Assembly: GCA_021786945.1 (NCBI GenBank)
Contig: JAJYMK010000001.1
Coordinates: 64,794 to 128,793, forward strand
Reading direction: 5' to 3'
DNA from: a bacterium
GTDB lineage: Bacteria; Patescibacteriota; Minisyncoccia; UBA6257; 02-FULL-45-10c
DNA length: 64,000 bases
Numbering within the stretch: the first letter of the stretch is position 1; the number at the start of each line of letters is the position of its first letter. The translations under genes were made by a program, and so were the position numbers. The notes under the pieces were generated by a model that was not told where the DNA came from, ran no database searches, and worked only from the letters and a program-made list of their open reading frames with translations. Shown here one piece after another: positions 2,734-33,991 of the stretch.

Positions 2734-3090
2734 ATGGCTAAATTTAATTCCCATATCAAAAGACTCAAGATCGTCCTTAAACCGGCTATGCCGATATTTG
2801 AGGGTGGATTAAAAATCGGCGATCAGCCGGGAGTTTACGCTCTGTTCGAAGATGGTCAATTTGAGACCAAGGATGAGGAAATCATCAAACAACTTGAGGG
2901 CTTAGACACATTCAAAATAGATTTTTGGCGTGTGTCTGGTGAGTCCAGTCCAGTCGAGGACACTACAGTCGACAAAGACTTTGTGAAGCTAACCAAAAAA
3001 GAGCTTCAATCTCTGGCAAAAGAAAAAGGTGTTGAGGTCGACGGCACTGAAACAAAAGAAAGACTGGTCGAGCTTTTGACCGACAAATAA
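2734..3090 (+). CDS. small phage protein with a C-terminal Rho-N/SAP-like helix-extension-helix motif
   Basis: ORF track begins at 2671, but 2671-2733 is AT-rich intergenic-looking sequence; in-frame ATG at 2734 (MAKFNSH...). The C-terminus KKELQSLAKEKGVEVDGTETKERLVELL resembles a Rho_N/HeH motif. Confidence 0.4.
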   Translation: MAKFNSHIKRLKIVLKPAMPIFEGGLKIGDQPGVYALFEDGQFETKDEEIIKQLEGLDTFKIDFWRVSGESSPVEDTTVDKDFVKLTKKELQSLAKEKGVEVDGTETKERLVELLTDK

Positions 3091-3123
3091 AACCTTAAGG
3101 GGTCGATAATCTAAAACAAACTT

Positions 3124-3903: not shown

Positions 3904-3919
3904 AAGAAATTAAAAAGCT

Positions 3920-5473: not shown

Positions 5474-5477
5474 AACT

Positions 5478-6947: not shown

Positions 6948-7258
6948 GCGTAAAAATTGTTCAAGACGATACAAGACCACCACTGGAATTCAATCTGACT
7001 CAAGATGGTTCACCTGTAGATTTAACCGGATGCACGGTCAAATTCTACATGAAAGATGCCACCAGCGGATCAGTAAAAATCAGTGGTAGTACTTGCGTGA
7101 TAACCGATGCCACCAAAGGTAAATGCAAATACCTCTGGACTTCATCGGATACCAACACAGCCGGAACTTATGTGGGAGAGGTTGAGGTCACTTTTCCTGA
7201 CGGAAAGATTCAGACCGGCTATAAACAAATCGGAATCACAATAAGAGCTGACATCTAA
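6944..7258 (+). CDS. hypothetical phage structural protein (104 aa)
   Basis: ORF overlapping the upstream stop codon (ATGA); beta-rich composition. Confidence 0.35.
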   Translation: MSVKIVQDDTRPPLEFNLTQDGSPVDLTGCTVKFYMKDATSGSVKISGSTCVITDATKGKCKYLWTSSDTNTAGTYVGEVEVTFPDGKIQTGYKQIGITIRADI

Positions 7259-7262
7259 AACT

Positions 7263-7895
7263 ATGACCAGAGGCGATATAAAAACAGCAATAAAAAACGA
7301 AGTCGATGATCAGACCGTTGACTCAACACTGCTCAACACATGGGTTCAAAGAGCCGATGAGAAAGTGCAGAGTTGGCGTCCATCGGATGATCGAGATCAG
7401 ACATTTGATTATTGGGATTATCTCAAAACCGAACAGCCGTTCACAACGGTTGCCAATCAAGAGAAATATCCAGTGCCAGAAAATTATCGTGCGTTCATCG
7501 AACTAAGAATCGGAACGGATAAAACACCTTATAAGCTGATCGACTTCCGAGACAGAGACAAGTTTGATGACCATGCGGTGTATATGCTGGGCGGTTATTT
7601 CTACCCGATAGCGACACCAACAATTGATGGTAATGCCATGAGGTTTGTCTTTGTCCGAATATCCGATGACTTTGCGTCCGACAATGACGAACCGGAGGTC
7701 GAAAAACTCTACCACCAAGCCTATGTCGAGTGGGGTAAGAAAATGTACTACAACCAACAAGGCGACACTGAATTGGAACGACAGGCCGAGAATAACTTCG
7801 AGAGAACAATGATTGGTAAATGGCGTGATCAAGAATTAGCCAGAATGTCTTCAGCTTCGGATCAAGCCGAAATTCCAAGAAGTAGTCTTGTATAA
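7263..7895 (+). CDS. hypothetical phage protein (210 aa)
   Basis: ORF in the structural block. Confidence 0.35.
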   Translation: MTRGDIKTAIKNEVDDQTVDSTLLNTWVQRADEKVQSWRPSDDRDQTFDYWDYLKTEQPFTTVANQEKYPVPENYRAFIELRIGTDKTPYKLIDFRDRDKFDDHAVYMLGGYFYPIATPTIDGNAMRFVFVRISDDFASDNDEPEVEKLYHQAYVEWGKKMYYNQQGDTELERQAENNFERTMIGKWRDQELARMSSASDQAEIPRSSLV

Positions 7896-7904
7896 ACAAC
7901 AACT

Positions 7905-9596
7905 ATGTCACTACCAAAGAAAATCTGGAAAACATCACAATTCCACAAAGGCATCTCAAACCTTAATGCCGAGGGAACCTTTTGGTTTTCAAACGGATTG
8001 GAATTTGATCAGTATCCTCCGTATTTGAAAGTGGCAAATAAATTTTTCAAAGAAAGTGACAGCGTAAGCGTGCCGACATTGAATCAGCCGACTTATATGT
8101 GTTATTTCAATTATCGATATTATTGCGTCAATCATGATGACGGAAAGATTTTTGAAAATAATTACAATAGCTGGACTGAAGTACACGACAGCGTAAACAT
8201 CTGGGGAGGAAGCGGATTATATGCCGATGACGATTATATGTACTACGCCGGAAGTACTTGGGTCGGTCGCTTTGATAAAAACACATGGGTGGACAATTGG
8301 CAGTCGTTTAATGTGAACACGGCATTTGACGATGTACCAATCACCAAGTTTTTGAAATTCATTTGCTTTGGAAATAAAAACTATTTAGCCACATGGGATA
8401 CAGGGGCAAGCTCTTGGAATCCCAACAAGCTAACGCTACCGACTGGCTATGTGATTATGTGGCTTGCACCGCTTACCGACTATCTCGTCATTTCCGCTCA
8501 CCATCCGACATTCGGATCAGCTTTGTTTTTCTGGGATGGATATTCGCAAACTTATAATCGTGTTTTACAACTAACCCAAACTCAAAGCTTGGCTGGTTGC
8601 GTTGATAAAAATGTTTTGTATTTCCTAACAAGGGACGGCTGGATCTGCCGATTTAATGGTTCGGGAATAGAAAAACTTAATAAGTTTCCTGAAATGAATC
8701 ATGAGGACTACATATCACTGAAAGCTGGATGCATGAAAGTTTATCAAGGCACAATTCTCATCGCTAAAGGATCAAATACCTACGATGTGAGTCGCCGAAA
8801 TCAATATTGCGGAATTTGGTGCTACAACCCATCAACTAACGCTCTTTATTTCAAGCACAGAATATCAACCGGTGCAGTCAATCATGTGACTCCAGGATTA
8901 GCGGTAATGTATGGACTTTATGTCGATAACAATACGATTCGAGTAATGTACAGCGACGGTAATAAATCAATCATCGATGTAAACCATGACACTGGAACAT
9001 TCAGACCTTATGAATTCGGGGCGTACTGGATCAGTCCGCTGATAGACAATGATCCATATCTTCGCAAGAGATGGAAACAAATAATTTTGAACTTTTTCAA
9101 ACCAATGCCTAATAGCAGTTTTGCGAGGTTTGAACTTAAGTACAACACCACTGAACAGAATATAAGAGATCAAGCGAAATATGTGACTGGCGGAGGTTCG
9201 GATTACTTTACCGTTTCTTATTTTAGTAGCTCGTATGAGGTTGGTGACGAAGTGATTATTCTTGCCGGTCCGGCCGCCGGACAGATTAGGCACATAAAAA
9301 GCATGGACAATGCAACAAAAACAATTTATCTGGATGAAACCCTGTACTATGTCGGGACTTCACAAGGATATTTGCAAGCCGGAGATTATGTGGCGATCAC
9401 ACCTTTTAAACGGCTTGGAACGATTAAAGGAAATGAAAATCAAGGCAAGGTAAATAAAATGCTTCGGTTTAATGCGAGGTCAAAAAAGATTCAATTCAAG
9501 GTCGAAGTCTGGAGTAATTCTGGATACTCGGGCGAATGGGACATGGGATTAAAAGATGTGTCCGCCGTATTCGTTCCGGACAGAATAATTAAATAA
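7905..9596 (+). CDS. hypothetical large phage structural protein (563 aa; Tyr/Trp/Asn-rich, possibly tail or baseplate)
   Basis: ORF size and position; no motif recognised. Confidence 0.4.
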   Translation: MSLPKKIWKTSQFHKGISNLNAEGTFWFSNGLEFDQYPPYLKVANKFFKESDSVSVPTLNQPTYMCYFNYRYYCVNHDDGKIFENNYNSWTEVHDSVNIWGGSGLYADDDYMYYAGSTWVGRFDKNTWVDNWQSFNVNTAFDDVPITKFLKFICFGNKNYLATWDTGASSWNPNKLTLPTGYVIMWLAPLTDYLVISAHHPTFGSALFFWDGYSQTYNRVLQLTQTQSLAGCVDKNVLYFLTRDGWICRFNGSGIEKLNKFPEMNHEDYISLKAGCMKVYQGTILIAKGSNTYDVSRRNQYCGIWCYNPSTNALYFKHRISTGAVNHVTPGLAVMYGLYVDNNTIRVMYSDGNKSIIDVNHDTGTFRPYEFGAYWISPLIDNDPYLRKRWKQIILNFFKPMPNSSFARFELKYNTTEQNIRDQAKYVTGGGSDYFTVSYFSSSYEVGDEVIILAGPAAGQIRHIKSMDNATKTIYLDETLYYVGTSQGYLQAGDYVAITPFKRLGTIKGNENQGKVNKMLRFNARSKKIQFKVEVWSNSGYSGEWDMGLKDVSAVFVPDRIIK

Positions 9597-9600
9597 ACAT

Positions 9601-9798
9601 ATGACTAAATTCACATTGGAAAAAATAGATCAAGAGAATGTAAAAAAGACAGACATTCGTGAGGATGTCTCAACGGTGAACATTCCAGCTTTAGAAAAAC
9701 AAAAGTCCGAACTGGAACAACAGATCACCTCAATGCAAAAACAACTCGACCAAATAAACGAGGTCTTGGCCGAGTATAAGAAACTTCCACAAACATGA
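9601..9798 (+). CDS. small coiled-coil phage protein (65 aa)
   Basis: ORF with a heptad-like segment LEKQKSELEQQITSMQKQLDQINEVLAEY. Confidence 0.3.
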   Translation: MTKFTLEKIDQENVKKTDIREDVSTVNIPALEKQKSELEQQITSMQKQLDQINEVLAEYKKLPQT

Positions 9799-9998
9799 AC
9801 AACTCACCAAACCAAGATCAACCATTTGATCCGAATCTGGGTTCGATACTCAATCTCCTCCGTGATATTCCGATATTGAACTCACCGCCATCAGATACAC
9901 CAAGAACGCCAATCAGCTTCGCTTTATACGACAACGGTGGCACAAGACGGTTCTATATATTTTTTAACGGAGTGTGGAGGTATGTAACGCTAACTTAA
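9795..9998 (+). CDS. hypothetical small phage protein (67 aa)
   Basis: ORF overlapping the upstream stop codon. Confidence 0.25.
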   Translation: MNNSPNQDQPFDPNLGSILNLLRDIPILNSPPSDTPRTPISFALYDNGGTRRFYIFFNGVWRYVTLT

Positions 9999-10004
9999 AA
10001 TCAT

Positions 10005-11333
10005 ATGGCTCAAATTACCATACAAAAAGGTCAAACATTATCGGGAATCGCCAAACAGCAAGGCACCACTGTTGATGCGATCATGAAAGCCAATCCGACC
10101 ATCAAGAATGCCAACCTGATATATGCAGGTTCTTCCTTAAATTTGCCCGGATCACCAACTTCACCCGTTGTTGCCCCTAAGGCGAGCGTTCCGAGCCCAA
10201 GTCCCACCGTGACACCTTCTTCGACCGTAACACCGCCCGTTGCCCAAAATTCGAGCCCGGGGACAAGCTCTGTCCCAGCCAAAAGCACCCTTTATGGGAC
10301 GGAAGTGCCTTCTAACACATCTTTGCTTAAACAATACCGGTCCGAACTAGGTCTCGATTCAACGCTTAAAAGCATGCAGGATAGCCAGACTTCCTACCTC
10401 GATACTCTCAAAAATTTGCCGAAAAAATCTGACATCTATCAGCAAGAAAGAACTAAGAGAGGGATTGATACGATGCAAACAAACTTAAAAAGTTTGGATG
10501 ATCGATTGGCCACAATGGAGGAAGCAATCAATAGTTCGGAAAAAGATATCCGAGATAGGACTGTCGCAAGTAATGGCTTGGTAACCGAGAGCCAAACACA
10601 AAGACTTGTAGCTTCCGAAAAGCAACCGCTGATTGATGAATACAGAAAATTATTGAATGAAAGAAATAGGCTTGCGACTGAAATGGGTACGGCTGATGCA
10701 TCCGCAAAAGAAATGGCTGGAATGCAATATGAGGATTCAACACTACCTTTGACCGTAGCAGAAAAAACTCTTGGATTCCAAAAAGATCAATACAGTGTGC
10801 TCGGTGATATTTTAGGCCAAGTATACGGTGCCTCAGAAAAAGATGTCGCCAATTTAATTGATTCTGCTAAATACGGAAAAGAACAGGAAAAGAAAGATGC
10901 TCAAGATGTGATAGATCGTGCCTTGAAACTTGCCCAGCTGGCCAATGATACTCCAGCCGGAACCGTGCTTGATGTGGGAGGAAATAAAGTAGTCGGACTT
11001 AAAGGAAAAACTGGAAGCGGTTCAGGAACCGACGGCAATGATGTTGAAGCTTACGCTTTGGAACTCTTAAACAATCCAAACTTCTCAATCAGTAATGTGC
11101 CTCAAAGTATTCGAGGACAAGTGATCACAAAAAGAGATCAGATTAAAGCTGAAGCGGAAACTTCGATGGCAAACAGTACGCCAGCGATGATAGACAACAC
11201 TCCTCCGATAACCGCACAACAATTCGGGGCTGGTTTACAGGATGTATTCACAAAGCAAATACCGGGAGTGGCAAAAAATGTGTGGGGTGGAACGAAAGGA
11301 TTCTTCAAAGGTCTTTTCGGTAGCGGAAATTAA
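10005..11333 (+). CDS. LysM domain-containing phage protein with a Pro/Ser/Thr-rich linker (442 aa)
   Basis: N-terminus IQKGQTLSGIAKQQGTTVDAIMKANPTIKNANLIYAGSSLNLPG matches the LysM consensus, followed by a PSPT-rich low-complexity linker. Confidence 0.65.
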   Translation: MAQITIQKGQTLSGIAKQQGTTVDAIMKANPTIKNANLIYAGSSLNLPGSPTSPVVAPKASVPSPSPTVTPSSTVTPPVAQNSSPGTSSVPAKSTLYGTEVPSNTSLLKQYRSELGLDSTLKSMQDSQTSYLDTLKNLPKKSDIYQQERTKRGIDTMQTNLKSLDDRLATMEEAINSSEKDIRDRTVASNGLVTESQTQRLVASEKQPLIDEYRKLLNERNRLATEMGTADASAKEMAGMQYEDSTLPLTVAEKTLGFQKDQYSVLGDILGQVYGASEKDVANLIDSAKYGKEQEKKDAQDVIDRALKLAQLANDTPAGTVLDVGGNKVVGLKGKTGSGSGTDGNDVEAYALELLNNPNFSISNVPQSIRGQVITKRDQIKAEAETSMANSTPAMIDNTPPITAQQFGAGLQDVFTKQIPGVAKNVWGGTKGFFKGLFGSGN

Positions 11334-11338
11334 AACTT

Positions 11339-14300
11339 ATGGCATATCTTAAAGACCCAAAAACTGGAAAATATATAGTCACTGATACAGCACCAACTGC
11401 AACAGTGAAAACTTCTGTCCCAACTTCTGCTGGGAACATTAAGTACGGTAAAAATGCCCAAGGCGGATACACAAAAATTGAGACGGACACATCTGCTGGA
11501 ACTTCTGCAAAACCAAACATCACCACAGTGGCCGGACTTAAAGATTACGCCTTAAAAAATAATGTTGATATTTCTGATGCCCAACCCCAAGAATCAACTC
11601 TGCAAAAAATTCTCAATGTCTTAAATACCGGTGCGTACGCTGTGGGAGGACTTATAAGTGGAAAAGGAATCGTTAAGGGAATCCAAGAACACACATTGCC
11701 ATCCGAAGCGTTAGGAATAAAAAACAAGATTGGAGGTTTTGTTGCTGATGTCCTGCTTGATCCAACCACTTACATAACATTCGGTTATGGTAGCGGTGCG
11801 AAACTTGCAACAAAAGCTGGCGAGGTTGTGCTTAGTAAAACAGGAACCAGTTTGCTTAAAAAATCCATCATTGAACTTGGCGAGCAAGGTGCGAGAAAAG
11901 CTCTTGCTGAAAAAGTTTTGCAAGAAGGAGGCGAAAAGTTATTAGCTAAAGGCGGTTTGAAATTTGCTGGAACTGAAATATTGCCCCGTAAGGTCGTAAC
12001 CGCACCGTTTAAGATCGCAGACACTCTTGTAGAAAAAACACCTGTGGTCGGAAAATTATATCAAGGTGCAAAAGACTTGGCCGGTAAAGCATTTGTACCA
12101 TTCAAATCAATTAAAGATATGCCGGGTGGAATAGGCCAACAGTATGTCGATAAATTTTCTGACTTCAGTAAAGCAACAAGATCGGAAGTCGGCAAAGCTG
12201 TTGAGGAAGTATCGGCTCTCGGAAAAACAGCTAAGAAAGAACTGGGAGATAAAGCTGGAATTGAGGTCGGGAAAATACTTGAGAATGTACCTAAACCTCA
12301 AATGCCACTGCCGAGAGCCCTTGAACCAATCAAAGACATGGTCAAAGGTGTTGATCTTGGGGACATAAAAGGAGTCGACCGAAATAATATCGTAGACATG
12401 AAAGTATTTGGGTCTTCTGTTGAGGGGAAACTAAAACCGAATGATGTTGATGTTTTTGTGAAAGTAAAAGACGGCTCGATGAAGTTTAAAAATGCTGGCG
12501 GTCTTCCAAGCCCGATAGTCATCAAGAAAGGAAAAGTCCAATACTTTATCATGCCTGAAAGCCAAGGCGATGAATTACTGGATGCAATGCTTTATACCGG
12601 CAGAAAAGATCAGAGTCGCTTGTATTCCGGAACGGCCGTAAAAGTTCCAAAACCTTACTGGAACGGAATGATGAAAGTAAACGATGATACTGCACAAGCT
12701 GGAAATAAAGTTATAAACGAGATCACTGACTACATAAGAGGCCAGCATAAATCATTTGCCACTAAAGAAAAAGAAAGAGGTCTCCTCGACTACACTTTGC
12801 CTGATTATCTTCGTCACTACCTGACACCAGAGGGTCGTGATTTCTTACAGAAAGGAAGTGCAAATATTACTGGGGAGTTAAACAAACCATTGCGAGTAAA
12901 AACACCATTTGCCAAAGAAAGAGAGCTGAACGACACGATCGGTGGAATCAATAAATACTTCCAAAAACAATACGGTGTCAGCCAGATGTTCGAAAGCGAT
13001 GCGTTCAAAGCATTCGCGGCTCGAAAAGCCGAACACATCAAAGCCGTAAATACCTACGACTTCCTGACCAATGTTGGAAAAGAATTCGGACGACCAGCAG
13101 AGGTAATGACTAAAGAAATCAAGAATCCAGTAACTGGAAAAATGATAACCAAAGAGATCACGAAGCCAATCTACGAAAACGGAATCAAATACATTGAAAG
13201 TTCAGTACCACAACTTAAAGGAACGCTTTTGCCAGAGCAGATTGTAAAGCATGTTGATGACACTTATAAAGTTTTAACCAACGAGGAAGCAACGAAAAAG
13301 TTTCTCGGTCTTTATGATAAAGTTTTGAATTTTTGGAAAGGATCGGTCACTGGATGGTTTCCAGCTTTCCACACACGAAACTCAATCGGTGGAATTTTTA
13401 ACAACTGGATTGCTGGTGTAAAAAGTCCGACTCGCTATCTGCAAGCTGATCAAATTGCCAGAGGTGCTGAGGGTGCAATAACCACTCAGATCGGGACGAA
13501 ATACACATATAGCCAGATAAGAGATGTTGCCAACAAACTGGGAGTCGTGGGACAGCCGGGTTATTTGGATGTCATGAAAGAAGTAGAAAAGGATATCGGA
13601 AAAGGTCCGGTGGCAAAACTGATGGATACACCTAAAAAAGCGATGGAGATTGTGGAAAACAGACTTCGTTTGCCTTTATTTGTTGATCGCTTAATTAAAG
13701 GCGATGCACCTGAACAGGCGGCCAAGGCCGTGTTCCAATTCCACTTCGACTACGCACCGGAAGCATTAGCACCTTTTGAACAGAACATAATGAAGCGTTT
13801 GTTGCCATTTTATAAGTGGACTCGTGGCAACATTCCACTTCAGCTTGAGCAAATGGTAAAACAACCCGGAAAGTATGCTGGAATCGGGAAAGCCGTACAG
13901 GGATTGCAGTCAGACAAAGAAAAAGCCAAAGAGGAATTTTCAATACTGCCTCCTTATATGCGAGAGGGTTTGCCAATCAGACTCGGCGAAAAAGGCGGAT
14001 TCTCACAATACCTATATGGACTGGGGTTGCCGGTCGAGGATGTAAACAGACTATATAAAGGAAGTGCCAAAAGAACACTGGCCAGTTTTATTGGTGAATT
14101 ATCTCCGCTTCTTAAATATCCAATCGAAGCTGGAACAGGACAAAACTTATTCACTGGTGAACCGATAGAAGCAAACAACAATGTCTATCCATTCATGAAT
14201 AAAGTCCCAGGACTCCGTGACTGGCTTGAAGTGACAGAAAAGAAAAATAAGGATGGATCAACGGGTTATGTCGCCAATGCTTATAAACTCCACTTCCTGA

Positions 14301-14524
14301 ACACTGCGTTGGGGAGATTCTACACTACAGCTGGAAAACTGACCGATGATAAAACATCCGGTGCGGTTAAGTTTTTGTACGGACTGATTGGTGCAAAAGC
14401 AAAATCCGTAGACATCGAAAAAGAAAAGTTTTGGCGTGATCAAGAACAACAAGACAGTCTTGAACAAGCTTTGCAAAATAGAGGTCTCCTAAAACAGTAT
14501 CAGAGGGCATATGTCCCAAAATAA
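11339..14524 (+). CDS. very large phage protein (1061 aa) with an embedded minimal nucleotidyltransferase (pol-beta superfamily) motif
   Basis: Segment MKVFGSSVEGKLKPNDVDVFVKV fits the GS-x(9-13)-DxD minimal NTase signature. A Gly/Ala/Lys-rich N-terminus precedes it. Position after the LysM gene and before the lysis genes. Confidence 0.45.
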   Translation: MAYLKDPKTGKYIVTDTAPTATVKTSVPTSAGNIKYGKNAQGGYTKIETDTSAGTSAKPNITTVAGLKDYALKNNVDISDAQPQESTLQKILNVLNTGAYAVGGLISGKGIVKGIQEHTLPSEALGIKNKIGGFVADVLLDPTTYITFGYGSGAKLATKAGEVVLSKTGTSLLKKSIIELGEQGARKALAEKVLQEGGEKLLAKGGLKFAGTEILPRKVVTAPFKIADTLVEKTPVVGKLYQGAKDLAGKAFVPFKSIKDMPGGIGQQYVDKFSDFSKATRSEVGKAVEEVSALGKTAKKELGDKAGIEVGKILENVPKPQMPLPRALEPIKDMVKGVDLGDIKGVDRNNIVDMKVFGSSVEGKLKPNDVDVFVKVKDGSMKFKNAGGLPSPIVIKKGKVQYFIMPESQGDELLDAMLYTGRKDQSRLYSGTAVKVPKPYWNGMMKVNDDTAQAGNKVINEITDYIRGQHKSFATKEKERGLLDYTLPDYLRHYLTPEGRDFLQKGSANITGELNKPLRVKTPFAKERELNDTIGGINKYFQKQYGVSQMFESDAFKAFAARKAEHIKAVNTYDFLTNVGKEFGRPAEVMTKEIKNPVTGKMITKEITKPIYENGIKYIESSVPQLKGTLLPEQIVKHVDDTYKVLTNEEATKKFLGLYDKVLNFWKGSVTGWFPAFHTRNSIGGIFNNWIAGVKSPTRYLQADQIARGAEGAITTQIGTKYTYSQIRDVANKLGVVGQPGYLDVMKEVEKDIGKGPVAKLMDTPKKAMEIVENRLRLPLFVDRLIKGDAPEQAAKAVFQFHFDYAPEALAPFEQNIMKRLLPFYKWTRGNIPLQLEQMVKQPGKYAGIGKAVQGLQSDKEKAKEEFSILPPYMREGLPIRLGEKGGFSQYLYGLGLPVEDVNRLYKGSAKRTLASFIGELSPLLKYPIEAGTGQNLFTGEPIEANNNVYPFMNKVPGLRDWLEVTEKKNKDGSTGYVANAYKLHFLNTALGRFYTTAGKLTDDKTSGAVKFLYGLIGAKAKSVDIEKEKFWRDQEQQDSLEQALQNRGLLKQYQRAYVPK

Positions 14525-14756
14525 AAATATGGATAAAACAGAGTATCAAAATCAAATACAAGACGAACGACTTGATCGAGTCGAGAAAACCGTAAACGAA
14601 ATCAAAGATAATCATCTCGTTCACCTACAAGAGGATGTAACGAAAGTCGGGACTGATGTCGACTGGCTCAAGCGTTTCTTTTGGATCTTGGCTACCGCAT
14701 CCGTGGGAGGTCTTATAACCGCCTTAATTAATTTACTAATAACAATCGATAAATAA
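14511..14756 (+). CDS. putative holin (81 aa; single C-terminal TM helix)
   Basis: C-terminal hydrophobic segment FFWILATASVGGLITALINLLITI; lies immediately upstream of the amidase endolysin. Confidence 0.45.
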   Translation: MSQNKNMDKTEYQNQIQDERLDRVEKTVNEIKDNHLVHLQEDVTKVGTDVDWLKRFFWILATASVGGLITALINLLITIDK

Positions 14757-14761
14757 AAACT

Positions 14762-15331
14762 ATGAATATCATTCAAAAGAAATCACCAAACTTCTGGGCT
14801 GGTCGCAACAGTTATCGTCCGGAAGCAATAGTCATTCACATTATGGATGGCACGCTGGCCGGAACCGATGCGTGGTTTACAAACCCATCTTCGCAAGTAA
14901 GTGCTCACTATGGCATCGGAAAGAATGGCGAAGTGCATCAGTATGTAAAAGAGGAAGATACTGCTTGGCACGCTGGACGAATAGACACACCAACTTGGAA
15001 GTTTATTAAACAAAAGGTAAACCCCAACCTCTATACAATCGGAATTGAACACGAGGGAAAGCCTGACGACATATGGACTGAAGCAATGAAACAAGCGAGT
15101 GCGATGATGATCCACGAGATCTGCCAACGCTGGCAAATACCGGTCGACCGTGATCACATCGTTGGCCACTTTGAGATTTACTCAAAGAAACCGAATTGTC
15201 CGGCAACTGATAAGCGGATATTGGACGAGCTTGTTGCCCTTGCCAGTGATCACACACCAAATACCTCAGTCGAGGATGGTGTGAGAAAGATTGAGGAGGG
15301 GCTGGCCATTATAAAGAAAATAATTTATTAA
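14762..15331 (+). CDS. N-acetylmuramoyl-L-alanine amidase (Amidase_2/PGRP fold) endolysin
   Basis: IVIHIMDGTLAGTDAWFTNPSSQVSAHYGIGKNGEVHQYVKEEDTAWHAG matches the Amidase_2 N-terminal region; C..H..C zinc-ligand-like residues are present. Confidence 0.8.
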   Translation: MNIIQKKSPNFWAGRNSYRPEAIVIHIMDGTLAGTDAWFTNPSSQVSAHYGIGKNGEVHQYVKEEDTAWHAGRIDTPTWKFIKQKVNPNLYTIGIEHEGKPDDIWTEAMKQASAMMIHEICQRWQIPVDRDHIVGHFEIYSKKPNCPATDKRILDELVALASDHTPNTSVEDGVRKIEEGLAIIKKIIY

Positions 15332-27730: not shown

Positions 27731-27961
27731 ATGAGTAAAAAGGTTTTTTATGTCACTAAAAATGGCATAAAGACAAAAAGTTTAATTCCCGGAAAATATG
27801 CGGGATGGAAGAAGGGAAAAATATTCGGACGTCTGGATTGTGCGTCCGGTAAAAAAATGAAAAAAGAAAACCGCGTATTTTTTCTTACGTGGCAAGATGC
27901 CATAAATTCCGGATACAGACCGTGTAAAAAATGCAAACCCGCACCAAATGATAAATATTAA
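27731..27961 (+). CDS. Ada metal-binding (Ada_Zn_binding) domain protein, 76 aa
   Basis: FYVTKNGIKTKSLIPGKYAGWK...YRPCKKCKP parallels the Ada N-terminal zinc domain consensus (FY...TGI.CRPSC......F......A...G.RPCKRC.P). Confidence 0.5.
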   Translation: MSKKVFYVTKNGIKTKSLIPGKYAGWKKGKIFGRLDCASGKKMKKENRVFFLTWQDAINSGYRPCKKCKPAPNDKY

Positions 27962-27989
27962 AATCCCCCGATACCGGGGGATTTTTTTA
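27961..27989. terminator. intrinsic terminator (ATCCCCCG-atac-CGGGGGAT followed by T7), located between convergent genes
   Basis: Perfect 8-bp stem 27963-27982. Confidence 0.6.
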
Positions 27990-30900
27990 TATCTTTCTTA
28001 TACCTATCCAGATTTTCTTACTATCAATTTCTGATATTATTTCTGCATTGAACTTATCTGATTTTTTAAGTTCAACCTCACTGGCGCCGACATCTTTCTT
28101 TAAAACGTCTTTATTGGCCTCAATAATCACTTCCAATTCTTTATCGGTTTCAATCATCAGATAAACCCTGTCTTTGGGTACAAAACCTCCCTCCTGCCTT
28201 AAATCCTGCACCATTCGCGCTAAATCCCTCATTAAGCCCTCTTCTTTCAATTCCTTGGTAATTATAGTATCCAGCTCTATTTCACCGCCTAATTGCAAAT
28301 TTACGGAAACTTCTTTTACGTTCACTTCCTCCTTAATTAAATCCATAAATTCACCGTCTTTTATAGAAAGTTTTTTAGTGTTTATTTCCAATTTTGCTAA
28401 TGGCTGCCTGACTTTAATTTTCTTTTCGGCTCTTAACGCCAAAGCCAAACTGGCAATGCGCCTAGCCTCCTCCATTTTTTCAATTATTTCGTTATTGGTA
28501 AATTCTTCATTAATTACCGGCCAGTCTTCAAGATGTACGGAAAGCTTAAGATTTTTTTCGTCCAAAGATTTATATAAAGCCTCGGCAAAAAATGGAGCAA
28601 ATGGAGCAATGAGTTTGCTTATTTCCAAAAGACAATAATATAAAACAGCTGAGGCTCTTTCTAAATCATCTTTACTTTCCGCTTTCTGGAATCTGCGCCT
28701 AGATCTGCGGATATACCACCTGGATAAGTCGTCGGTAAAACTCTCAATTCCCTTACAAGCGTAATTTACATCGTATTTTTCCAAACTGATGGTAGTTTCG
28801 GAAACAACTTTATTTAATCTGGCTAAAATCCATCGGTCTATCAGATCAAAATTTGAAATATTTCCGGATAATTTTTTACCTAACAATCCATATGTTTCCA
28901 AAAATACAAAAGAGTTGAAAATTATTGCAATAAATCTGCGGTAAGCCTTGCCCAAATCCATTTCGTCGAATTTCTTGTATTCCGCAGGGGGATTGATGGT
29001 ATAAAAATACCAGCGGACAATATCTGATCCATATTTATTTATCATATCCCACGGACTTACTACGTTACCCTTTGATTTAGACATTTTTTGTCCATTTTTA
29101 TCCAAAACCAAACCCAAAGTAATGACATTCAAATAAGACGGGCCTAAACCCAAAGCCGTGGAAATAGCCAGAAGCGTATAAAACCATCCCCTAGTCTGAT
29201 CAATGCCCTCGGAAATATAATCGGCCGGAAATTGAATATTTGTTTTTATTTTATTCAAATCCAACTGCTCGGATTTTTTGACTCCGGATTCAAACGGATA
29301 ATGATATTGGGCATAAGGCATGCAGCCCGAATCAAACCAAACATCAGCCACCTCTTTCACCCTGCTCATCCTTCCTCTACATTTCCTGCATTTCAAATAA
29401 ACGCTATCCACATAAGGTTTATGTAAATCCAATTCAAAGGTAATGGTATTGTATGGGTAGTTATTGAATTTTACTTTTCTGATTTCAGCGATATCAATAT
29501 AAGGAGCTTTTAATGTTTCTTCATCGGATAATCCGTTCATTGAATTTTCCAATATCCAAAGAGGGTCGCCGTGTCCGGTAATCAAAATATTTTTATTACT
29601 ATATTTGGCATTAATATCAATCATAAAATCCATCACGCGTTTTCGGACATCGGTCAGAGTTTCCCCGCCAGCCGGAGCCTTCACGAATCTTTCCATTTCA
29701 TTTTCGAAAAACTTATGAAAATCGGATACCAAACGTCCGTTAAACATACCTACTTGAAGCTCGCCTAATCTTTTATCAATCACAATTTTTGCCCCGAATT
29801 TTTTGGCGGCAATTTTGGCGGTTTCTTTTGCGCGTGCATAAGGTGAAGAAATAATAAGATCAATTTTTTTCTTGCCTAATTGCTTGGCTAATTTGACCAC
29901 AGACTCGGCAACCTGTTCTTTGCCCTTCTCAGTTAAATGAGAAGTGTTGTTTTTAGTTTCAACCCCGGAAGCAATAGTCCCAGCCTGTACATGATTAGCC
30001 TCGCCGTGCCTCAAAAGCCAGAAATTATTTTCCGAATATCTGAGTTTATTAAAATCCTCAAGCCCGCCAACAACTTCAGTATTTTCACATTTATCACACT
30101 GCCAAATCGGAAGCGGAGTTCCCCAATATCTGTCTCGAGAAATAGCCCAATCCTTAATTTCCCTGAGCCATTCACCGAATCTTCCTTCTTTAATATGCTC
30201 CGGTACCCAATTTATTTTCTGGTTATTTTCCAAAAGCTTATCTCTTAATTTTGACATCTCTATAAACCAGGAAAACTTGGCAAAATACAAAAGCGGATTA
30301 GAGCATCTCCAGCAATGTGGATATTCATGCTCCACCGTTCCCGAACTGTACAGAATATTTCTCTCGGCTAAATTGGCGATAATATCCTTGTCGGCCTGCT
30401 TTACAAATTTTCCGGCACCAGGAAGACCCTTAGCCACAATACCCCTCTCATCGATAGTAATTGGGGCTTTTTTTGCCAGATCTTTAACTTCTTTTTTGAT
30501 TAAATTAAAATCATCTTCTCCAAAAGCCGGAGCGATATGGACCATGCCGGTTCCGTCTTCGGTAGAAACAAAATCAGCAGCTTTTACCGAGAAAAAACTC
30601 TTTTCTTTCTGGGCTATAGCAATTTTAAACAAAGGCTCATATTTCAAACCAACCAGTTTAAATCCGGAAATTTTTTCGACGGCTTCTATCTCGACACTTT
30701 CTTTTTCCGGAGGCGGATTATAGGCCCAGACAAATTCCTTTCCGACTTTATATTTTGTATATGTAAGCTTCGGGTTCACAGCCACAGCTACGTTAGACGG
30801 CAATGTCCATGGTGTAGTGGTCCAAACCAAAAGATATTCATTTTTCCTGCCTTTTATTTTAAATTTTATGAAAACCGATGGGTCGCTGACTTTTTTATAA

Positions 30901-31520
30901 GCTCCCGGCTGAGCCAATTCGTGACTGGAAAGCGGAGTCTGGCATCGCGGGCACCACGGCACAATTTTAAATGATCTGGTAAGTAATTTTCTGTTTGAAA
31001 TCTGCTTCAACACCCACCACAAACTTTCAATATAAGAATTATGATATGTAACATAAGGATTTTTCAGATCCAGCCAAAAAGCCACTCTGTCCGTAAGTTT
31101 TTCCCATTCATCCTTATATTTCCAGACCGAAGCCTTGGCTTTTTCGTTGAATTCGGCAACGCCAAATTTTTCGATATCATGCTTTCCCTTGAAACCAAGC
31201 TCTTTTTCTACTTCAATTTCCACCGGCAATCCATGCGTATCCCAACCCGCTTTCCTACTAACAAAATAACCCTTCATTGTTTTATATCGGGGTATCACAT
31301 CTTTAAAAGCGCGGCCCAAAACATGGTGAATGCCCGGCCTACCATTGGCGGTCGGCGGACCTTCAAAAAAATTATAGGCTTTAGCGCCCTCCCTTTGTTT
31401 TAAAGATTTTTCGAAAATCTGATTTTCTTTCCAAAATTTCAATACTTTTTCCTCAAGTTCCGGTAATTTAAATTCTTTTATTTTTCTTAACATATTCTTA
31501 TATATTAATAAAAAAACCAC
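27987..31520 (-). CDS. ileS: isoleucyl-tRNA synthetase (type 2) carrying an internal ~200-aa histidine-phosphatase (PGAM-like) domain insertion
   Basis: HIGH-class motif PPTANGRPGIHHVLGR; editing-domain WCPRCQTPLSSHE; KMSKS. Residues ~498-700 (nt ~29420-30030) contain the histidine phosphatase motifs LLRHGE, SSPYARAKETA and ITGHGD. This block lies between CDKC and CRKC Cys pairs. Confidence 0.9.
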   Translation of the reverse strand: MVFLLIYKNMLRKIKEFKLPELEEKVLKFWKENQIFEKSLKQREGAKAYNFFEGPPTANGRPGIHHVLGRAFKDVIPRYKTMKGYFVSRKAGWDTHGLPVEIEVEKELGFKGKHDIEKFGVAEFNEKAKASVWKYKDEWEKLTDRVAFWLDLKNPYVTYHNSYIESLWWVLKQISNRKLLTRSFKIVPWCPRCQTPLSSHELAQPGAYKKVSDPSVFIKFKIKGRKNEYLLVWTTTPWTLPSNVAVAVNPKLTYTKYKVGKEFVWAYNPPPEKESVEIEAVEKISGFKLVGLKYEPLFKIAIAQKEKSFFSVKAADFVSTEDGTGMVHIAPAFGEDDFNLIKKEVKDLAKKAPITIDERGIVAKGLPGAGKFVKQADKDIIANLAERNILYSSGTVEHEYPHCWRCSNPLLYFAKFSWFIEMSKLRDKLLENNQKINWVPEHIKEGRFGEWLREIKDWAISRDRYWGTPLPIWQCDKCENTEVVGGLEDFNKLRYSENNFWLLRHGEANHVQAGTIASGVETKNNTSHLTEKGKEQVAESVVKLAKQLGKKKIDLIISSPYARAKETAKIAAKKFGAKIVIDKRLGELQVGMFNGRLVSDFHKFFENEMERFVKAPAGGETLTDVRKRVMDFMIDINAKYSNKNILITGHGDPLWILENSMNGLSDEETLKAPYIDIAEIRKVKFNNYPYNTITFELDLHKPYVDSVYLKCRKCRGRMSRVKEVADVWFDSGCMPYAQYHYPFESGVKKSEQLDLNKIKTNIQFPADYISEGIDQTRGWFYTLLAISTALGLGPSYLNVITLGLVLDKNGQKMSKSKGNVVSPWDMINKYGSDIVRWYFYTINPPAEYKKFDEMDLGKAYRRFIAIIFNSFVFLETYGLLGKKLSGNISNFDLIDRWILARLNKVVSETTISLEKYDVNYACKGIESFTDDLSRWYIRRSRRRFQKAESKDDLERASAVLYYCLLEISKLIAPFAPFFAEALYKSLDEKNLKLSVHLEDWPVINEEFTNNEIIEKMEEARRIASLALALRAEKKIKVRQPLAKLEINTKKLSIKDGEFMDLIKEEVNVKEVSVNLQLGGEIELDTIITKELKEEGLMRDLARMVQDLRQEGGFVPKDRVYLMIETDKELEVIIEANKDVLKKDVGASEVELKKSDKFNAEIISEIDSKKIWIGIRKI

Positions 31521-31548
31521 CTTATGAAAAGGCGGGTTTTTTATATTT

Positions 31549-33264
31549 CTACATCCTCTCAGGAACTTTTATTCCTAGAATTTCTAAACCATTTTTCATA
31601 ATCTGCATAAATGCCAAAGTTAAAGCTAATTTATACGGAGAAAATTCGTCTTTCTTGTTTACGATTTTTACTTTAGCGTAATAAGCATTGAATACCCTGC
31701 TAAGCTCTATTAAATATGTAGCAATGTAATGCGGAGCCAATTCCTTCCCGGATCTTTCAACTACTTCAGAAAATCGGCAAATCATGCTTTCCAATTCGGA
31801 AACTTCATTCGGCATTAATTTTAATGCCGGCTTCACCTTTTCTTCTTTGGCTTTTTCCAAAACAGATTTGGCACGCGTATAGGCATATTGCAAATACGGC
31901 CCGGAATCGCCTTCAAAGGAGATGGATTTTTCAAAATCAAAAATAATATCCCCTCCTATTGCCTGCCTCAAAATCGAGTATTTTACAGCACCAATAGAAA
32001 CAACTTCTTTAATTTCTTTTTTTTCTTTTTCTGTTAATTTCTGGCCTGAGATTTTTTCTTCAACCAATTTTTCAACTTCAGCTATTAAAGATTCAGCCGT
32101 AATAATATTTCCTGCACGCGAAGACATTTTTCCGCTGGCAAAACGAAGCATGCCGTGTCCGATATGCCTGGAAATCTTGGCATACTCCGGAAAAATAAAT
32201 TCCAACGCCTTAAAAACCACCCTGAAATAATCATTTTGTTCATTGGCGGTCACAATCAAAGATGACGTCAATCTTTTTTCCAAACCCATCTTCTTTTTAG
32301 CCAAACCCAGATCCTTTGTTTCGTAGGTCGGTAAACCCTGGGAATTTATAAATACACGCGTATGAAGGCCATATTTATCGCCCGGGAAAATCACTGCACC
32401 GCTACTCTCTTCAAAAACTTTTTCTCGTCCTAAGTTTACCGAAGGATTCAAAAATTCTCTGACAATTTTTTCGCCATCGGAAATAACCGAAGATTCCAAA
32501 ATAATATGGTTAAATTTTGTGCCAAGTTTTTTATAAACCTCGTCAAAATGAGCCAAGCTCCACTTTTTTCCTTTTTCGTAAAAACGATTTATTTCTTTGT
32601 CAGACTTTTCGAAAACTTTTTTGTTTATTTCTTTTATTTCTCCGGCCGCAGCCTGATTATCTTCATATTTTTGGGAACCCAAAACATAGGACTTTCCCAG
32701 AAAAGCAATTTTTTCTTCCAATTTAGCACTGTCTTTAGGAAAATTTTCCTTATCCTGTAAAATCCCCCAGATTGTTTTTGCCACATGAAGGCCGACATCA
32801 CCCTGATAGCAAACTCTTATAACTTTTGCCCCATTCCATTCAAAAACTCTGCAAAGCGATTCGCCAATAGCATTACTCATCAAGTGTCCTATATGAAACT
32901 CCTTGAAAGGATTAGGGTCGGTATAGTCCAACATAATTTTCTGTCCTTTCAGATTGCTGTTTTTACCGTATTTATCCTTATTTTTTAAGATAATTGGCAA
33001 TTCACTCTGAAAAAATTCCGGTTTCATCCAAAAATTTATGAATCCCGGAGCTGCGGCTTCCACTTTTTCGATATATTCATTTTTAGAAAGTTTTTCCGCC
33101 AATTCTCCGGCTATTTCCAAAGGAGATTTTTTCTGTATTTTAGAAAGCTTAAAAGCAACATTTGAAGAATAATGCCCAAAACCAAACTTCTCCGAAGCCG
33201 ATACTCCCATATCGATATCTTCCTTAATCACCTCTTTTAGTATTTTGACTATTCTTTCAGTCAT
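31549..33264 (-). CDS. argS: arginyl-tRNA synthetase
   Basis: HIGH motif region FHIGHLMSNAIGESL; characteristic C-terminus ...LEILGIKVPERM; length 571 aa. Confidence 0.9.
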   Translation of the reverse strand: MTERIVKILKEVIKEDIDMGVSASEKFGFGHYSSNVAFKLSKIQKKSPLEIAGELAEKLSKNEYIEKVEAAAPGFINFWMKPEFFQSELPIILKNKDKYGKNSNLKGQKIMLDYTDPNPFKEFHIGHLMSNAIGESLCRVFEWNGAKVIRVCYQGDVGLHVAKTIWGILQDKENFPKDSAKLEEKIAFLGKSYVLGSQKYEDNQAAAGEIKEINKKVFEKSDKEINRFYEKGKKWSLAHFDEVYKKLGTKFNHIILESSVISDGEKIVREFLNPSVNLGREKVFEESSGAVIFPGDKYGLHTRVFINSQGLPTYETKDLGLAKKKMGLEKRLTSSLIVTANEQNDYFRVVFKALEFIFPEYAKISRHIGHGMLRFASGKMSSRAGNIITAESLIAEVEKLVEEKISGQKLTEKEKKEIKEVVSIGAVKYSILRQAIGGDIIFDFEKSISFEGDSGPYLQYAYTRAKSVLEKAKEEKVKPALKLMPNEVSELESMICRFSEVVERSGKELAPHYIATYLIELSRVFNAYYAKVKIVNKKDEFSPYKLALTLAFMQIMKNGLEILGIKVPERM

Positions 33265-33377
33265 AATTAAATATTATCAGAAATTTAGCCAAATATCATT
33301 ATTTTAAATATTTATTGACATATTTTTATTAGAGGAATAGCATTTAAATTAGTTATTTCAATCTTTACGGAGGGTTT

Positions 33378-33539
33378 ATGGAAATAAGGAAAAAGGTTAA
33401 ATGCAGATGCGGGCGCAAACTGACCCGCGTTTTCTGCGCCGACAACGAAACCACCCAGGTTTACTTCGTCGGCAAGAAAAAAGGAGAGGTCATAAAGAAG
33501 TGCCCTGGATGCAAAAAATCACTTAAGGGGTTGATATGA
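33378..33539 (+). CDS. unannotated small zinc-ribbon protein (53 aa), GC-rich
   Basis: Not in the ORF track (shorter than 60 aa). RBS GGAGGG lies 3 nt upstream of the ATG. Translates to MEIRKKVKCRCGRKLTRVFCADNETTQVYFVGKKKGEVIKKCPGCKKSLKGLI with a CxC...C...CxxC arrangement. Its stop codon overlaps the next gene's start. Confidence 0.35.
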   Translation: MEIRKKVKCRCGRKLTRVFCADNETTQVYFVGKKKGEVIKKCPGCKKSLKGLI

Positions 33540-33991
33540 AAGAAATAGAAAATATGACCCTGCTCCTGATGTTGGTGATAATCATGCTCTTCGTTGCTAC
33601 GAGCGGTATGAAAATCGCCAAAAAGGTCACTTTATTGATGCTGGGTCTTATAGTAGCTCTCTGGCTCTGCGGATGCCAGATGATGCAAAAAAAGACCTTC
33701 GTCCATAAAGGGTACGTATGCTATACCAACGCAACCATCATGGAAGTTAAAAACTCCCGCGAACAGCTGAAGTTTATGGGGGCGGCGGTAAAGCCTGAAA
33801 AAAAGAAGATGTGCGACACAGTCCTGCGGACCGATCAGAACGAAATGATGACGGCTTCACGTGAAGGCTACGTGGAATGTTCCACCAACACGGTGAACGG
33901 ACGCGTAACTGTCTACACCTTCAATAATCAGGTAATAGGCATAAATGACAGCCCTGATCCCTACCTCGAAGAAAACAACGCCAATAAATAG
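33536..33991 (+). CDS. hypothetical membrane or secreted protein (151 aa), GC-rich
   Basis: Two N-terminal hydrophobic segments and a Cys-containing C-terminal domain; GC clearly above the surrounding DNA. Confidence 0.4.
   Translation: MKEIENMTLLLMLVIIMLFVATSGMKIAKKVTLLMLGLIVALWLCGCQMMQKKTFVHKGYVCYTNATIMEVKNSREQLKFMGAAVKPEKKKMCDTVLRTDQNEMMTASREGYVECSTNTVNGRVTVYTFNNQVIGINDSPDPYLEENNANK

What the first reader, a model, noticed from the sequence alone, without database searches (positions are those of the whole stretch)
29420..30030. Complete histidine-phosphatase (PGAM-like, RHG) domain inserted inside isoleucyl-tRNA synthetase
The single 1177-aa ileS ORF carries a ~200-residue block with all hallmark histidine phosphatase motifs: LLRHGE (the catalytic His in RHG), SSPYARAKETA, and a second His in ITGHGD. 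The block sits between a CDKC and a CRKC Cys pair (a split zinc-knuckle position), immediately before the DVWFDSG segment. It is in frame, has no intein signatures, and the synthetase motifs flanking it (HIGH-like, WCPRC editing domain, KMSKS) are intact. An aaRS fused internally to a phosphatase fold is not a standard architecture. It could represent a moonlighting or regulatory activity, for example acting on a nucleotide or phospho-substrate, or a selfish domain insertion.
Basis: partly seen in the sequence, partly recalled or inferred. Interest (0 to 1): 0.7.

Follow-up and report, generated by a model that had tools for sequence, protein, structure and literature searches.

The report
Phosphatase domain captured inside isoleucyl-tRNA synthetase
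The isoleucyl-tRNA synthetase of this candidate-phyla-radiation bacterium carries a complete, apparently active histidine phosphatase domain that related bacteria encode as a separate gene between argS and ileS, which points to an undescribed partnership between this phosphatase and tRNA-charging enzymes.

Summary

It is not an assembly artefact. The 120 best homologues and at least 346 GTDB species genomes (Patescibacteria/Parcubacteria) show the same architecture. The catalytic residues (R504, H505, R563, E587, E620, H650) are invariant or nearly so.

New here: a stand-alone phosphatase of about 190 aa from the same subfamily lies next to argS in nine sampled contexts and next to an insert-less ileS in seven. 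The window keeps that synteny but has no gene between argS and ileS. The neighbouring gene's domain now sits inside ileS.

The same subfamily is also inserted at other IleRS loops (sometimes in tandem) and in ValRS. It is fused to ArgRS, TsaC and ATP sulfurylase as well. All of these enzymes release PPi.

Best reading: an autonomous, active phosphohydrolase tethered to adenylate-forming enzymes. The substrate is unproven; PPi is my leading guess at about 0.3. I found no paper describing this. Novelty: new variant of a known kind.

The parts
27987..31520 (-). ileS ORF (type-2 IleRS with internal phosphatase domain). The listed ORF is 1177 aa from GTG 31520; the likely true start is ATG at 31493 (1168 aa).
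30087..30098 (-). First Cys pair of the second zinc knuckle (C475-D-K-C478)
   Evidence: conservation C475 119/121 and C478 92/121
29436..30038 (-). Inserted segment (aa ~495-695, about 201 aa) that is absent from insert-less IleRS
29460..30023 (-). His_Phos_1 (PF00300) domain, aa 500-687
30003..30011 (-). RHG motif: R504, nucleophile H505, G506
   Evidence: R and H are invariant in 121 homologues and in 160 of the 161 domain copies compared, the last having a gap
29832..29834 (-). R563, second phosphate-binding Arg (SPYxR motif)
   Evidence: invariant
29760..29762 (-). E587, predicted general acid (RLxE motif)
   Evidence: E 118/121 and D 3/121; E or D in 159 of 161 copies
29571..29573 (-). 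H650, second catalytic His (GHGD)
   Evidence: invariant
29406..29435 (-). ELDLHKPYVD, where the chain returns to the IleRS body; this segment is also conserved in insert-less IleRS
29379..29390 (-). Second Cys pair of the zinc knuckle (C711-R-K-C714)
   Evidence: 121/121 conserved
29073..29087 (-). KMSKS signature of the synthetase
31549..33264 (-). argS (ArgRS, 571 aa) directly upstream and co-directional; in sister lineages the stand-alone phosphatase gene lies next to argS, usually between it and ileS
31517..31535 (-). Terminator-like hairpin plus U-run between the argS stop and the ileS start; no gene fits in this gap

Best explanation
The gene is the housekeeping type-2 isoleucyl-tRNA synthetase of a Patescibacteria (Parcubacteria-type) bacterium. 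A complete branch-1 histidine phosphatase domain of about 200 aa has been transplanted into the tip of its second zinc-knuckle hairpin.

Shown:
- The synthetase scaffold is intact: the GXHH variant of HIGH, KMSKS, the CP1 editing motifs, the anticodon-binding domain and the C-terminal domain are all present.
- The insert folds as an autonomous PhoE/PspA-like domain with every catalytic residue conserved.
- In sister lineages the same phosphatase subfamily is a separate gene of about 190 aa next to argS, usually between argS and an insert-less ileS. In the window the synteny is kept, that gene is missing, and the domain is inside ileS.
- The same subfamily has been joined independently to other PPi-releasing, adenylate-forming enzymes. 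These are other loops of IleRS (sometimes in tandem), ValRS, the C-terminus of ArgRS, the C-terminus of TsaC and the N-terminus of ATP sulfurylase.

Inferred:
- The domain is an active phosphohydrolase that works through a phospho-His505 intermediate. R504, R563 and H650 would hold the phosphate and E587 would protonate the leaving group.
- It acts beside the synthetase, not on its chemistry. It would be made 1:1 with IleRS and held next to the site where ATP is split.

My committed guess for the substrate is inorganic pyrophosphate, the one product shared by all partner enzymes, so that hydrolysis pulls adenylate formation forward. Rough confidences: anatomy and origin about 0.9; a functional link to adenylate-forming enzymes about 0.55; PPi as the substrate about 0.3.
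For: Architecture and fold.

Breadth:
- The 120 best homologues (54-89% identity) all carry PF00300 plus the IleRS domains.
- 346 GTDB species-representative genomes match. All 80 loci kept have the domain inside an IleRS-sized ORF.

Constraint on the insert:
- The catalytic R/H/R/E/H residues are invariant.
- Insert identity averages 51%, against 54% for the anticodon-binding domain.
- Insert length is fixed at 224-241 aa.

Stand-alone relatives:
- They share 35-45% identity with the insert.
- At least 120 clusters exist, named only 'histidine phosphatase family protein' or 'PhoE'.

Synteny:
- Ten stand-alone genes were looked up. Nine lie next to argS and seven also next to an insert-less ileS; the tenth contig shows neither gene.
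- The window has the same wider gene order but only about 28 nt between argS and ileS.
- No second copy of the domain exists in the window. None of the same subfamily was found in the flanks of the fusion loci.

Independent joins to PPi-releasing enzymes:
- ArgRS::HP, on a 70-kb contig in two assemblies.
- HP::ATP sulfurylase, in three assemblies.
- TsaC::HP, in four clusters.
- ValRS with at least four tandem copies.
- IleRS insertion sites A, C and D.
- Sources.

Precedent: histidine phosphatases that cleave P-O-P bonds are documented in PMC13573052 and PMC7926622.
Against: - No activity or substrate has been measured.
- The closest solved relatives are phosphomonoesterases (PspA, GpgP, PhoE, CobC). 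The P-O-P precedents I found are from branch 2, not branch 1.
- Patescibacterial TsaC is also fused to unrelated enzymes (MGMT very often, TruB, 2H phosphoesterase, NUDIX, GNAT, a DNA glycosylase). Fusion partners in these compact genomes are therefore weak evidence of shared function.
- The ATP-sulfurylase fusion sits next to a sulfotransferase. That fits a 3'-phosphoadenosine (PAP) phosphatase equally well.
- PPi may be a useful energy carrier in these organisms; one Parcubacterium is drawn with an H+-PPase.
- I could not inspect model coordinates or PAE, so the orientation of the phosphatase pocket relative to the synthetic site is unknown.
- I could not check whole genomes for ppa, hppA or a second stand-alone copy.
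Confidence: 0.55

Rival explanations
1. Neutral capture of a housekeeping phosphatase. The phosphatase has a general metabolic job unrelated to aminoacylation, for example broad phosphomonoester scavenging. It only happens to lie in the argS-ileS operon. In streamlined Patescibacteria genomes neighbouring genes fuse easily. The catalytic residues stay conserved simply because the insert is now the cell's only copy.
For: The stand-alone gene is the immediate neighbour of ileS and argS. The distribution is complementary: a stand-alone gene or an insert, not both, in the DNA I could see. TsaC in the same organisms is fused to many unrelated domains. The nearest characterised enzymes are broad-specificity phosphomonoesterases.
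Against: An insertion into an internal surface loop of the catalytic body is not a read-through fusion. The same subfamily entered at least three different IleRS loops, entered ValRS, and is tandemly amplified (2 to 4 or more copies). The other partners found (ArgRS, TsaC, ATP sulfurylase) are all PPi-releasing enzymes, and no unrelated partner appears among the 150 best representatives.
Confidence: 0.25
2. A 3'-phosphate (adenosine 3'-phosphate) phosphatase. The domain would remove a 3'-phosphomonoester from adenosine moieties. Candidates are damaged tRNA ends (A76 3'-phosphate, after opening of a 2',3'-cyclic phosphate) so that the tRNA can be charged again, or PAP produced by sulfotransferases.
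For: Histidine phosphatases are typically phosphomonoesterases. IleRS, ArgRS and ValRS all bind the tRNA 3' end. The ATP-sulfurylase fusion is followed immediately by a sulfotransferase, whose by-product is PAP. TsaC in the same organisms is alternatively fused to 2H phosphoesterase (cyclic-phosphodiesterase-like) domains and to TruB.
Against: TsaC and ATP sulfurylase are not known to bind tRNA (my own knowledge). There is no reason why general end-healing should be tied to Ile, Arg and Val enzymes. I know of no described histidine phosphatase that acts on RNA 3' ends, and my literature searches found none.
Confidence: 0.12
3. A regulatory module. The domain would act as a protein phosphatase (SixA/PGAM5-like, on the synthetase itself or a partner), or as a phospho-metabolite sensor that tunes IleRS activity.
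Confidence: 0.06
4. An artefact or a selfish element: a chimeric assembly, an intein, or a mobile insertion that disrupts the gene.
For: Nothing beyond the unusual architecture.
Against: The architecture occurs in 346 species genomes and more than 120 protein clusters from independent assemblies. The reading frame is open throughout. No Hint, intein or endonuclease family is hit. GC content is uniform across the junctions at 0.36-0.43. The full-length model is confident (pLDDT 88.4, pTM 0.81).
Confidence: 0.01

Closest known systems
Type-2 isoleucyl-tRNA synthetase (Priestia megaterium IleRS2, PDB 8c8w; Thermus thermophilus IleRS, 1ile)
   Same: Same enzyme family and domain order. Sequence match 792 bits to 8c8w and Foldseek TM 0.81 normalised to the target. 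It shares the GXHH form of the HIGH motif, KMSKS, CP1, the two zinc sites and the DUF5915 C-terminal domain.
   Different: The solved enzymes have only a short turn (about 8 residues in 8c8w) where this protein has a 200-aa phosphatase domain.
Small broad-specificity branch-1 histidine phosphatases (PspA 4ij5, PhoE 1h2e, GpgP 6s2q, CobC 6e4b, HFP 9mmh)
   Different: Only 21-24% identity. It is below every curated NCBIfam cut-off (PspA 66 of 350, CobC 69 of 163, dPGM_arch 76 of 225, GpmB 47 of 261). It has its own subfamily motifs (SHGDPLW, and the NWPYN return linker in the inserted form) and its own genomic niche between argS and ileS.
Bifunctional proteins that carry a branch-1 histidine phosphatase domain (Rv2228c RNase H/acid phosphatase; MutT1 Nudix plus HP domain; PFK-2/FBPase-2)
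   Different: Those are end-to-end fusions. Here the domain is inserted inside the catalytic body of an aminoacyl-tRNA synthetase, and the partner is a translation enzyme.
Lineage-specific insertions and appended domains of class I synthetases (for example the NCBIfam 'ileS_w_GNAT' IleRS with an acetyltransferase domain)
   Same: An accessory module is added to a class Ia synthetase without destroying it.
   Different: A different module (a phosphatase with an intact active site) at a different position. The ileS_w_GNAT model scores 281 bits against a cut-off of 1999.
ATP sulfurylase-pyrophosphatase fusions of some eukaryotes (my own recollection, not checked here)
   Same: A PPi-releasing adenylyl transferase physically joined to an enzyme proposed or known to remove PPi. 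This subfamily is also found fused to ATP sulfurylase.
   Different: Those use a canonical family-I pyrophosphatase. PPi hydrolysis by this histidine phosphatase is only a hypothesis.

Membership tests
Histidine phosphatase superfamily, branch 1 (PF00300) | Significant match to the family HMM over the whole domain | tested here: met
   E=8.1e-30, 104 bits against a cut-off of 21.7; profile positions 1-183 of 194
Histidine phosphatase superfamily, branch 1 (PF00300) | RHG motif with the nucleophilic His, a second Arg, a second His and an acidic proton donor | tested here: met
   R504, H505, R563 and H650 are invariant and E587 is E or D in 121 homologues. R563, E620 and H650 are invariant in all 161 domain copies. 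R504 and H505 are present in 160 (one gap). E587 is E or D in 159.
Histidine phosphatase superfamily, branch 1 (PF00300) | Alpha/beta PGAM-like fold | tested here: met
Histidine phosphatase superfamily, branch 1 (PF00300) | Phosphatase or mutase activity through a phospho-His intermediate | not testable with these tools
   Needs an enzyme assay
Cofactor-dependent phosphoglycerate mutase (dPGM, GpmA/GpmB) | Reaches the curated equivalog score | tested here: not met
   dPGM_arch 76 bits against 225; GpmB 47 bits against 261
PspA phosphoserine phosphatase, CobC alpha-ribazole phosphatase, SixA | Reaches the curated equivalog score | tested here: not met
   PspA 66 bits against 350; CobC 69 against 163; SixA 32 against 74.5. 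Stand-alone relatives are also below the cut-offs.
Isoleucyl-tRNA synthetase (TIGR00392), type 2 | Reaches the equivalog score; class I signatures; CP1 editing motifs; type-2 C-terminal domain | tested here: met
   885 bits against a cut-off of 621. GIHH and KMSKS are present. TTTPWTLP and GTG.VH..P..G.DD are invariant. DUF5915 is at 1081-1176. The best structures are IleRS2.
Isoleucyl-tRNA synthetase (TIGR00392), type 2 | Aminoacylation activity retained despite the insert | not testable with these tools
   Inferred from the intact motifs, the housekeeping synteny, and its being the only IleRS in 64 kb
Mupirocin-resistance IleRS MupA/MupB; ileS_w_GNAT | Reaches the exception-model score | tested here: not met
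   MupA 770 bits and MupB 761 bits against 1900; ileS_w_GNAT 281 bits against 1999
Intein or homing element | Hint/intein splicing domain or endonuclease, and an insertion that interrupts a conserved host motif | tested here: not met
   No such Pfam family at E<=0.01. The insert replaces a variable hairpin tip, and the host motifs on both sides are intact.
Inorganic pyrophosphatase (functional class) | Hydrolysis of PPi | not testable with these tools
   Hypothesis only, resting on the shared chemistry of the partner enzymes

The most novel reading that the evidence does not exclude
This subfamily would be a previously unrecognised, metal-independent, histidine-phosphatase-type inorganic pyrophosphatase. 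It would be the dedicated PPi remover for adenylate-forming enzymes in Patescibacteria. It exists free in the argS-X-ileS operon, or is physically built into IleRS, ValRS, ArgRS, TsaC and ATP sulfurylase. Tethering would drive amino-acid activation in cells with minimal metabolism.
Probability: 0.2. Interest if true: 0.8.

Novelty: new variant of a known kind. Interest (0 to 1): 0.62.

Why it matters
Aminoacyl-tRNA synthetases are among the most conserved enzymes. Accessory domains with their own intact catalytic site inside the catalytic body are rare in bacteria.

Here a whole lineage (hundreds of Patescibacteria species) has built a phosphatase into IleRS. The free-standing form of the same protein is locked between argS and ileS in relatives. 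Independent joins to ValRS, ArgRS, TsaC and ATP sulfurylase recur. Together these give a strong, testable 'Rosetta-stone' signal for a new helper of adenylate-forming enzymes in organisms that cannot yet be studied genetically.

If the substrate is PPi, this would add a new class of pyrophosphatase. It would also help explain how these minimal cells pull activation reactions forward. If the substrate is a 3'-phosphate, it would reveal a tRNA-end repair step coupled to charging. Either way, the proteins are small, soluble-looking and directly assayable.

Tried and rejected
- Literature. None found a description of this architecture. Two papers give P-O-P-cleaving histidine phosphatases in branch 2. 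Two CPR papers mention H+-PPase or PPA only in figure legends.
- Model coordinates are not exposed. I could not measure the distance or orientation between the phosphatase pocket and the synthetic site.
- Foldseek against AFDB50 was unavailable.
- Foldseek of the full-length model returned only IleRS structures, as expected.
These loci are about 12-kb pieces of about 100 genomes, so the result is uninformative.
- A neighbour-joining tree of IleRS bodies suggests that insert-bearing and insert-less IleRS are interspersed. The method is too weak to count gains and losses, so I draw no conclusion beyond 'patchy'.
- Rejected readings: dPGM, PspA, CobC or SixA membership (below the cut-offs); intein or mobile element; assembly chimera.
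- The extra His_Phos ORF in L073 is a different, larger PGAM-family protein, not this subfamily.
Full report
**1. What is in the sequence**

Window 27987..31520 (minus strand) is one uninterrupted ORF of 1177 aa. Pfam finds tRNA-synt_1 split in two, Anticodon_1 (895-1042) and DUF5915 (1081-1176). Between the two halves of the catalytic domain it finds His_Phos_1 at aa 500-687, with E=8.1e-30 and 104 bits against a cut-off of 21.7. NCBIfam calls the protein ileS (885 bits, cut-off 621). It places the insert nearest to PhoE/CobC/PspA-type phosphatases, all below their family cut-offs.

GC content is even across the junctions. The GTG start lies inside a terminator-like hairpin that follows argS. 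The closest homologues are 1168 aa, so the real start is probably the ATG at 31493.

**2. Where the insert sits**

The best solved relatives are type-2 IleRS: P. megaterium IleRS2 8c8w (792 bits) and T. thermophilus 1ile. In the HMMER alignment, query 489-691 has no counterpart, while 8c8w runs from 472 to 481.

Aligned to insert-less IleRS from related bacteria, the extra segment is aa ~495-695. It lies after C-x2-C...(V/I)G(G/S)..E(L/F) and before ELDLH(K/R)PYVD...C-x2-C. That is the tip of the hairpin held by the second zinc knuckle.

**3. Real and under constraint**

All 120 best database homologues (54-89% identity, 1113-1219 aa) carry PF00300 together with the IleRS domains. Where named, they come from Patescibacteria, Parcubacteria, Minisyncoccota, Harrisonbacteria or Zambryskibacteria.

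A scan of one genome per GTDB species found 346 genomes encoding the motif [IV][VI][SG]HGDPLW with a confirmed match. In all 80 loci kept, the domain lies inside an IleRS-sized ORF.

- R504, H505, R563, E620 and H650 are invariant in 121 sequences, and E587 is E in 118 and D in 3.
- Mean identity of the insert is 51%, like the anticodon-binding domain at 54%.
- The spacing between the Cys pairs is fixed at 224-241 aa.
- The synthetase signatures and the CP1 editing motifs are invariant.

An assembly artefact, an intein and a decaying insertion are all excluded.

**4. Where the domain came from**

A profile of the insert was searched against 1.84 billion representatives. It returned many IleRS, but also genuine stand-alone proteins of about 180-210 aa at 160-209 bits. 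These are 35-45% identical to the window's insert, as close to inserts as to each other, and keep the catalytic residues. A profile of them finds 1427 proteins at E<1e-15. The 120 best are all single-domain, and those with a source name are called 'histidine phosphatase family protein' (from Patescibacteria or Parcubacteria MAGs) or 'broad specificity phosphatase PhoE'.

I looked up the genomic context of ten stand-alone genes.

- Nine lie next to argS, usually 4-40 nt downstream or overlapping it.
- In seven of these an insert-less ileS (938-984 aa) also abuts the gene.
- Five of those seven have the order argS, phosphatase, ileS on one strand. The other two have ileS convergent.
- The tenth contig is short and shows neither argS nor ileS.
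- Loci: L081-L083, L085-L093 and L097-L099.

The wider gene order in those loci is MFS, Pol X, NUDIX, L20, L35, IF3, smpB, argS. Much of it recurs in the window: MFS 38975, Pol X 37234, NUDIX 36703, IF3 35078, tmRNA 34590, argS 31549-33264, ileS. But the window has only about 28 nt, holding a hairpin, between argS and ileS. The only copy of the domain in 64 kb is the one inside ileS. In the fusion-bearing loci argS is again upstream and co-directional. No free copy of the subfamily is seen in the flanks.

The simplest history is that the neighbouring gene was relocated into ileS. I could not check the rest of each genome.

**5. Other joins of the same subfamily**

- ArgRS with the domain at its C-terminus, on a 70-kb contig in two assemblies. 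That locus retains smpB, argS::HP and recO but has lost ileS.
- TsaC/Sua5 with the domain at its C-terminus, in four clusters including an NCBI Patescibacteria MAG.
- The domain at the N-terminus of ATP sulfurylase, in three assemblies, immediately followed by a sulfotransferase.
- A ValRS with at least four tandem copies.
- IleRS with two copies in tandem at the same site.
- IleRS with copies at two further sites: between DxWFxS and KMSKS, and between KMSKS and the anticodon-binding domain.

The catalytic residues are kept in all these copies, with one E-to-Q change at the E587 position in the ATP-sulfurylase fusion. Every partner splits ATP into an adenylate and PPi.

**6. How it most likely works**

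Shown: an intact synthetase carries an intact, autonomous phosphatase fold that replaces a free-standing neighbour gene.

Inferred: catalysis goes through phospho-His505, with R504, R563 and H650 holding the phosphate and E587 acting as the acid. This is the standard mechanism of the superfamily.

Recurrent insertion at several loops, tandem amplification and the conserved operon all argue that proximity to these enzymes is selected. The shared product of all partners is PPi, so I commit to PPi hydrolysis that pulls adenylate formation forward, at roughly 0.3. Precedents for P-O-P cleavage in the superfamily exist, but in branch 2 (PMC13573052, PMC7926622).

Against this:
- The nearest structures are monoesterases.
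- TsaC in these organisms fuses with many unrelated domains.
- The sulfurylase context also fits a PAP 3'-phosphatase.
- I could not test genome-wide absence of canonical PPases.

Rivals:
- neutral capture of a housekeeping phosphatase (0.25);
- 3'-phosphate (tRNA end or PAP) phosphatase (0.12);
- regulatory or protein phosphatase (0.06);
- artefact (0.01).

**7. Comparison with what is known**

The scaffold is a member of type-2 IleRS, and all its defining features are met. The insert is a member of the histidine phosphatase superfamily, branch 1: HMM, motifs and fold are met, and activity is untestable here. It is not a member of dPGM, PspA, CobC or SixA, because it falls below all curated cut-offs.

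The nearest analogies are end-to-end bifunctional proteins with a histidine phosphatase domain (Rv2228c-type RNase H/acid phosphatase, MutT1, PFK-2/FBPase-2). Other analogies are class I synthetases with lineage-specific modules, such as ileS_w_GNAT. No paper I could search describes a phosphatase inside an aaRS. The proteins are in public databases under generic names ('class I tRNA ligase family protein').

**8. Verdict**

New findings:
- the origin of the insert from the argS-X-ileS neighbour gene;
- the complementary distribution of free and inserted forms;
- the recurrent joins to other PPi-releasing enzymes.

Novelty: a new variant of a known kind, namely an accessory-domain-bearing aaRS that carries an uncharacterised histidine phosphatase subfamily. 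Interest 0.62.

Noticed in passing
window 492-15331 (+): A block of phage-like structural and lysis genes. It holds an SU10-type major capsid protein (1406-2629, E=1e-39), an SU10 adaptor (7263-7895), a beta-helix/NosD protein (3920-5473), a LysM protein (10005-11333), a 1061-aa ORF with no family (11339-14524) and an Amidase_2 (14762-15331). It looks like a podovirus-like prophage or remnant in a Patescibacteria genome.
   Followed up: no
window 31323-31334 (-), IleRS aa 63-66: The class I 'HIGH' signature is GIHH. This GXHH form occurs in 98 of 121 homologues and the canonical HXGH in 23. From my own recollection, GXHH is the altered motif linked to mupirocin hyper-resistance in P. megaterium IleRS2; the 8c8w entry title mentions a hyper-resistant HIGH-motif mutant.
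   Followed up: partly
L081:4371-4373 (-): The insert-less ileS of this related contig has a single in-frame TGA exactly at the invariant Trp of the CWRC zinc motif (HC*RC). The rest of the gene stays in frame. This could be UGA=Trp recoding, a sequencing error or a pseudogene. The argS next to it has no in-frame stop.
   Followed up: partly
proteins P0394-P0507 (relatives of the TsaC fusion): TsaC/Sua5 of Patescibacteria is fused to a strikingly varied set of domains. These are O6-methylguanine methyltransferase PF01035 (the commonest form), TruB, 2H/cyclic phosphodiesterase-like domains, NUDIX, GNAT and a methylpurine glycosylase.
   Followed up: no
protein P0210 (IleRS, 1066 aa, JGI contig of 11 kb): An IleRS with the phosphatase insert that also has a C-terminal GNAT acetyltransferase domain and an IS200-like Y1 transposase match (PF01797, aa 340-461) inside the CP1 region.
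   Followed up: no
window 27960-27985 and 31517-31535: Terminator-like hairpins lie directly after the ileS stop (11-bp stem, bidirectional) and between argS and ileS. Here ileS may be transcribed separately from argS, although the two genes are only about 28 nt apart.
   Followed up: partly
window 33536-33991 (+) and 33350-33950: A 151-aa ORF with no Pfam match sits between argS and the tmRNA gene, in a stretch of higher G+C (0.43-0.48 against about 0.36 nearby). By eye its N-terminus looks hydrophobic and contains an LCGC motif that could be a lipobox. Related loci have smpB at roughly this position.
   Followed up: no
L073:254-1087 (+): A second, unrelated PGAM-family ORF (about 265 aa, LLGRHGESEGN...) lies upstream of the fusion ileS in a Vogelbacteria MAG. 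It is a different subfamily from the insert.
   Followed up: partly
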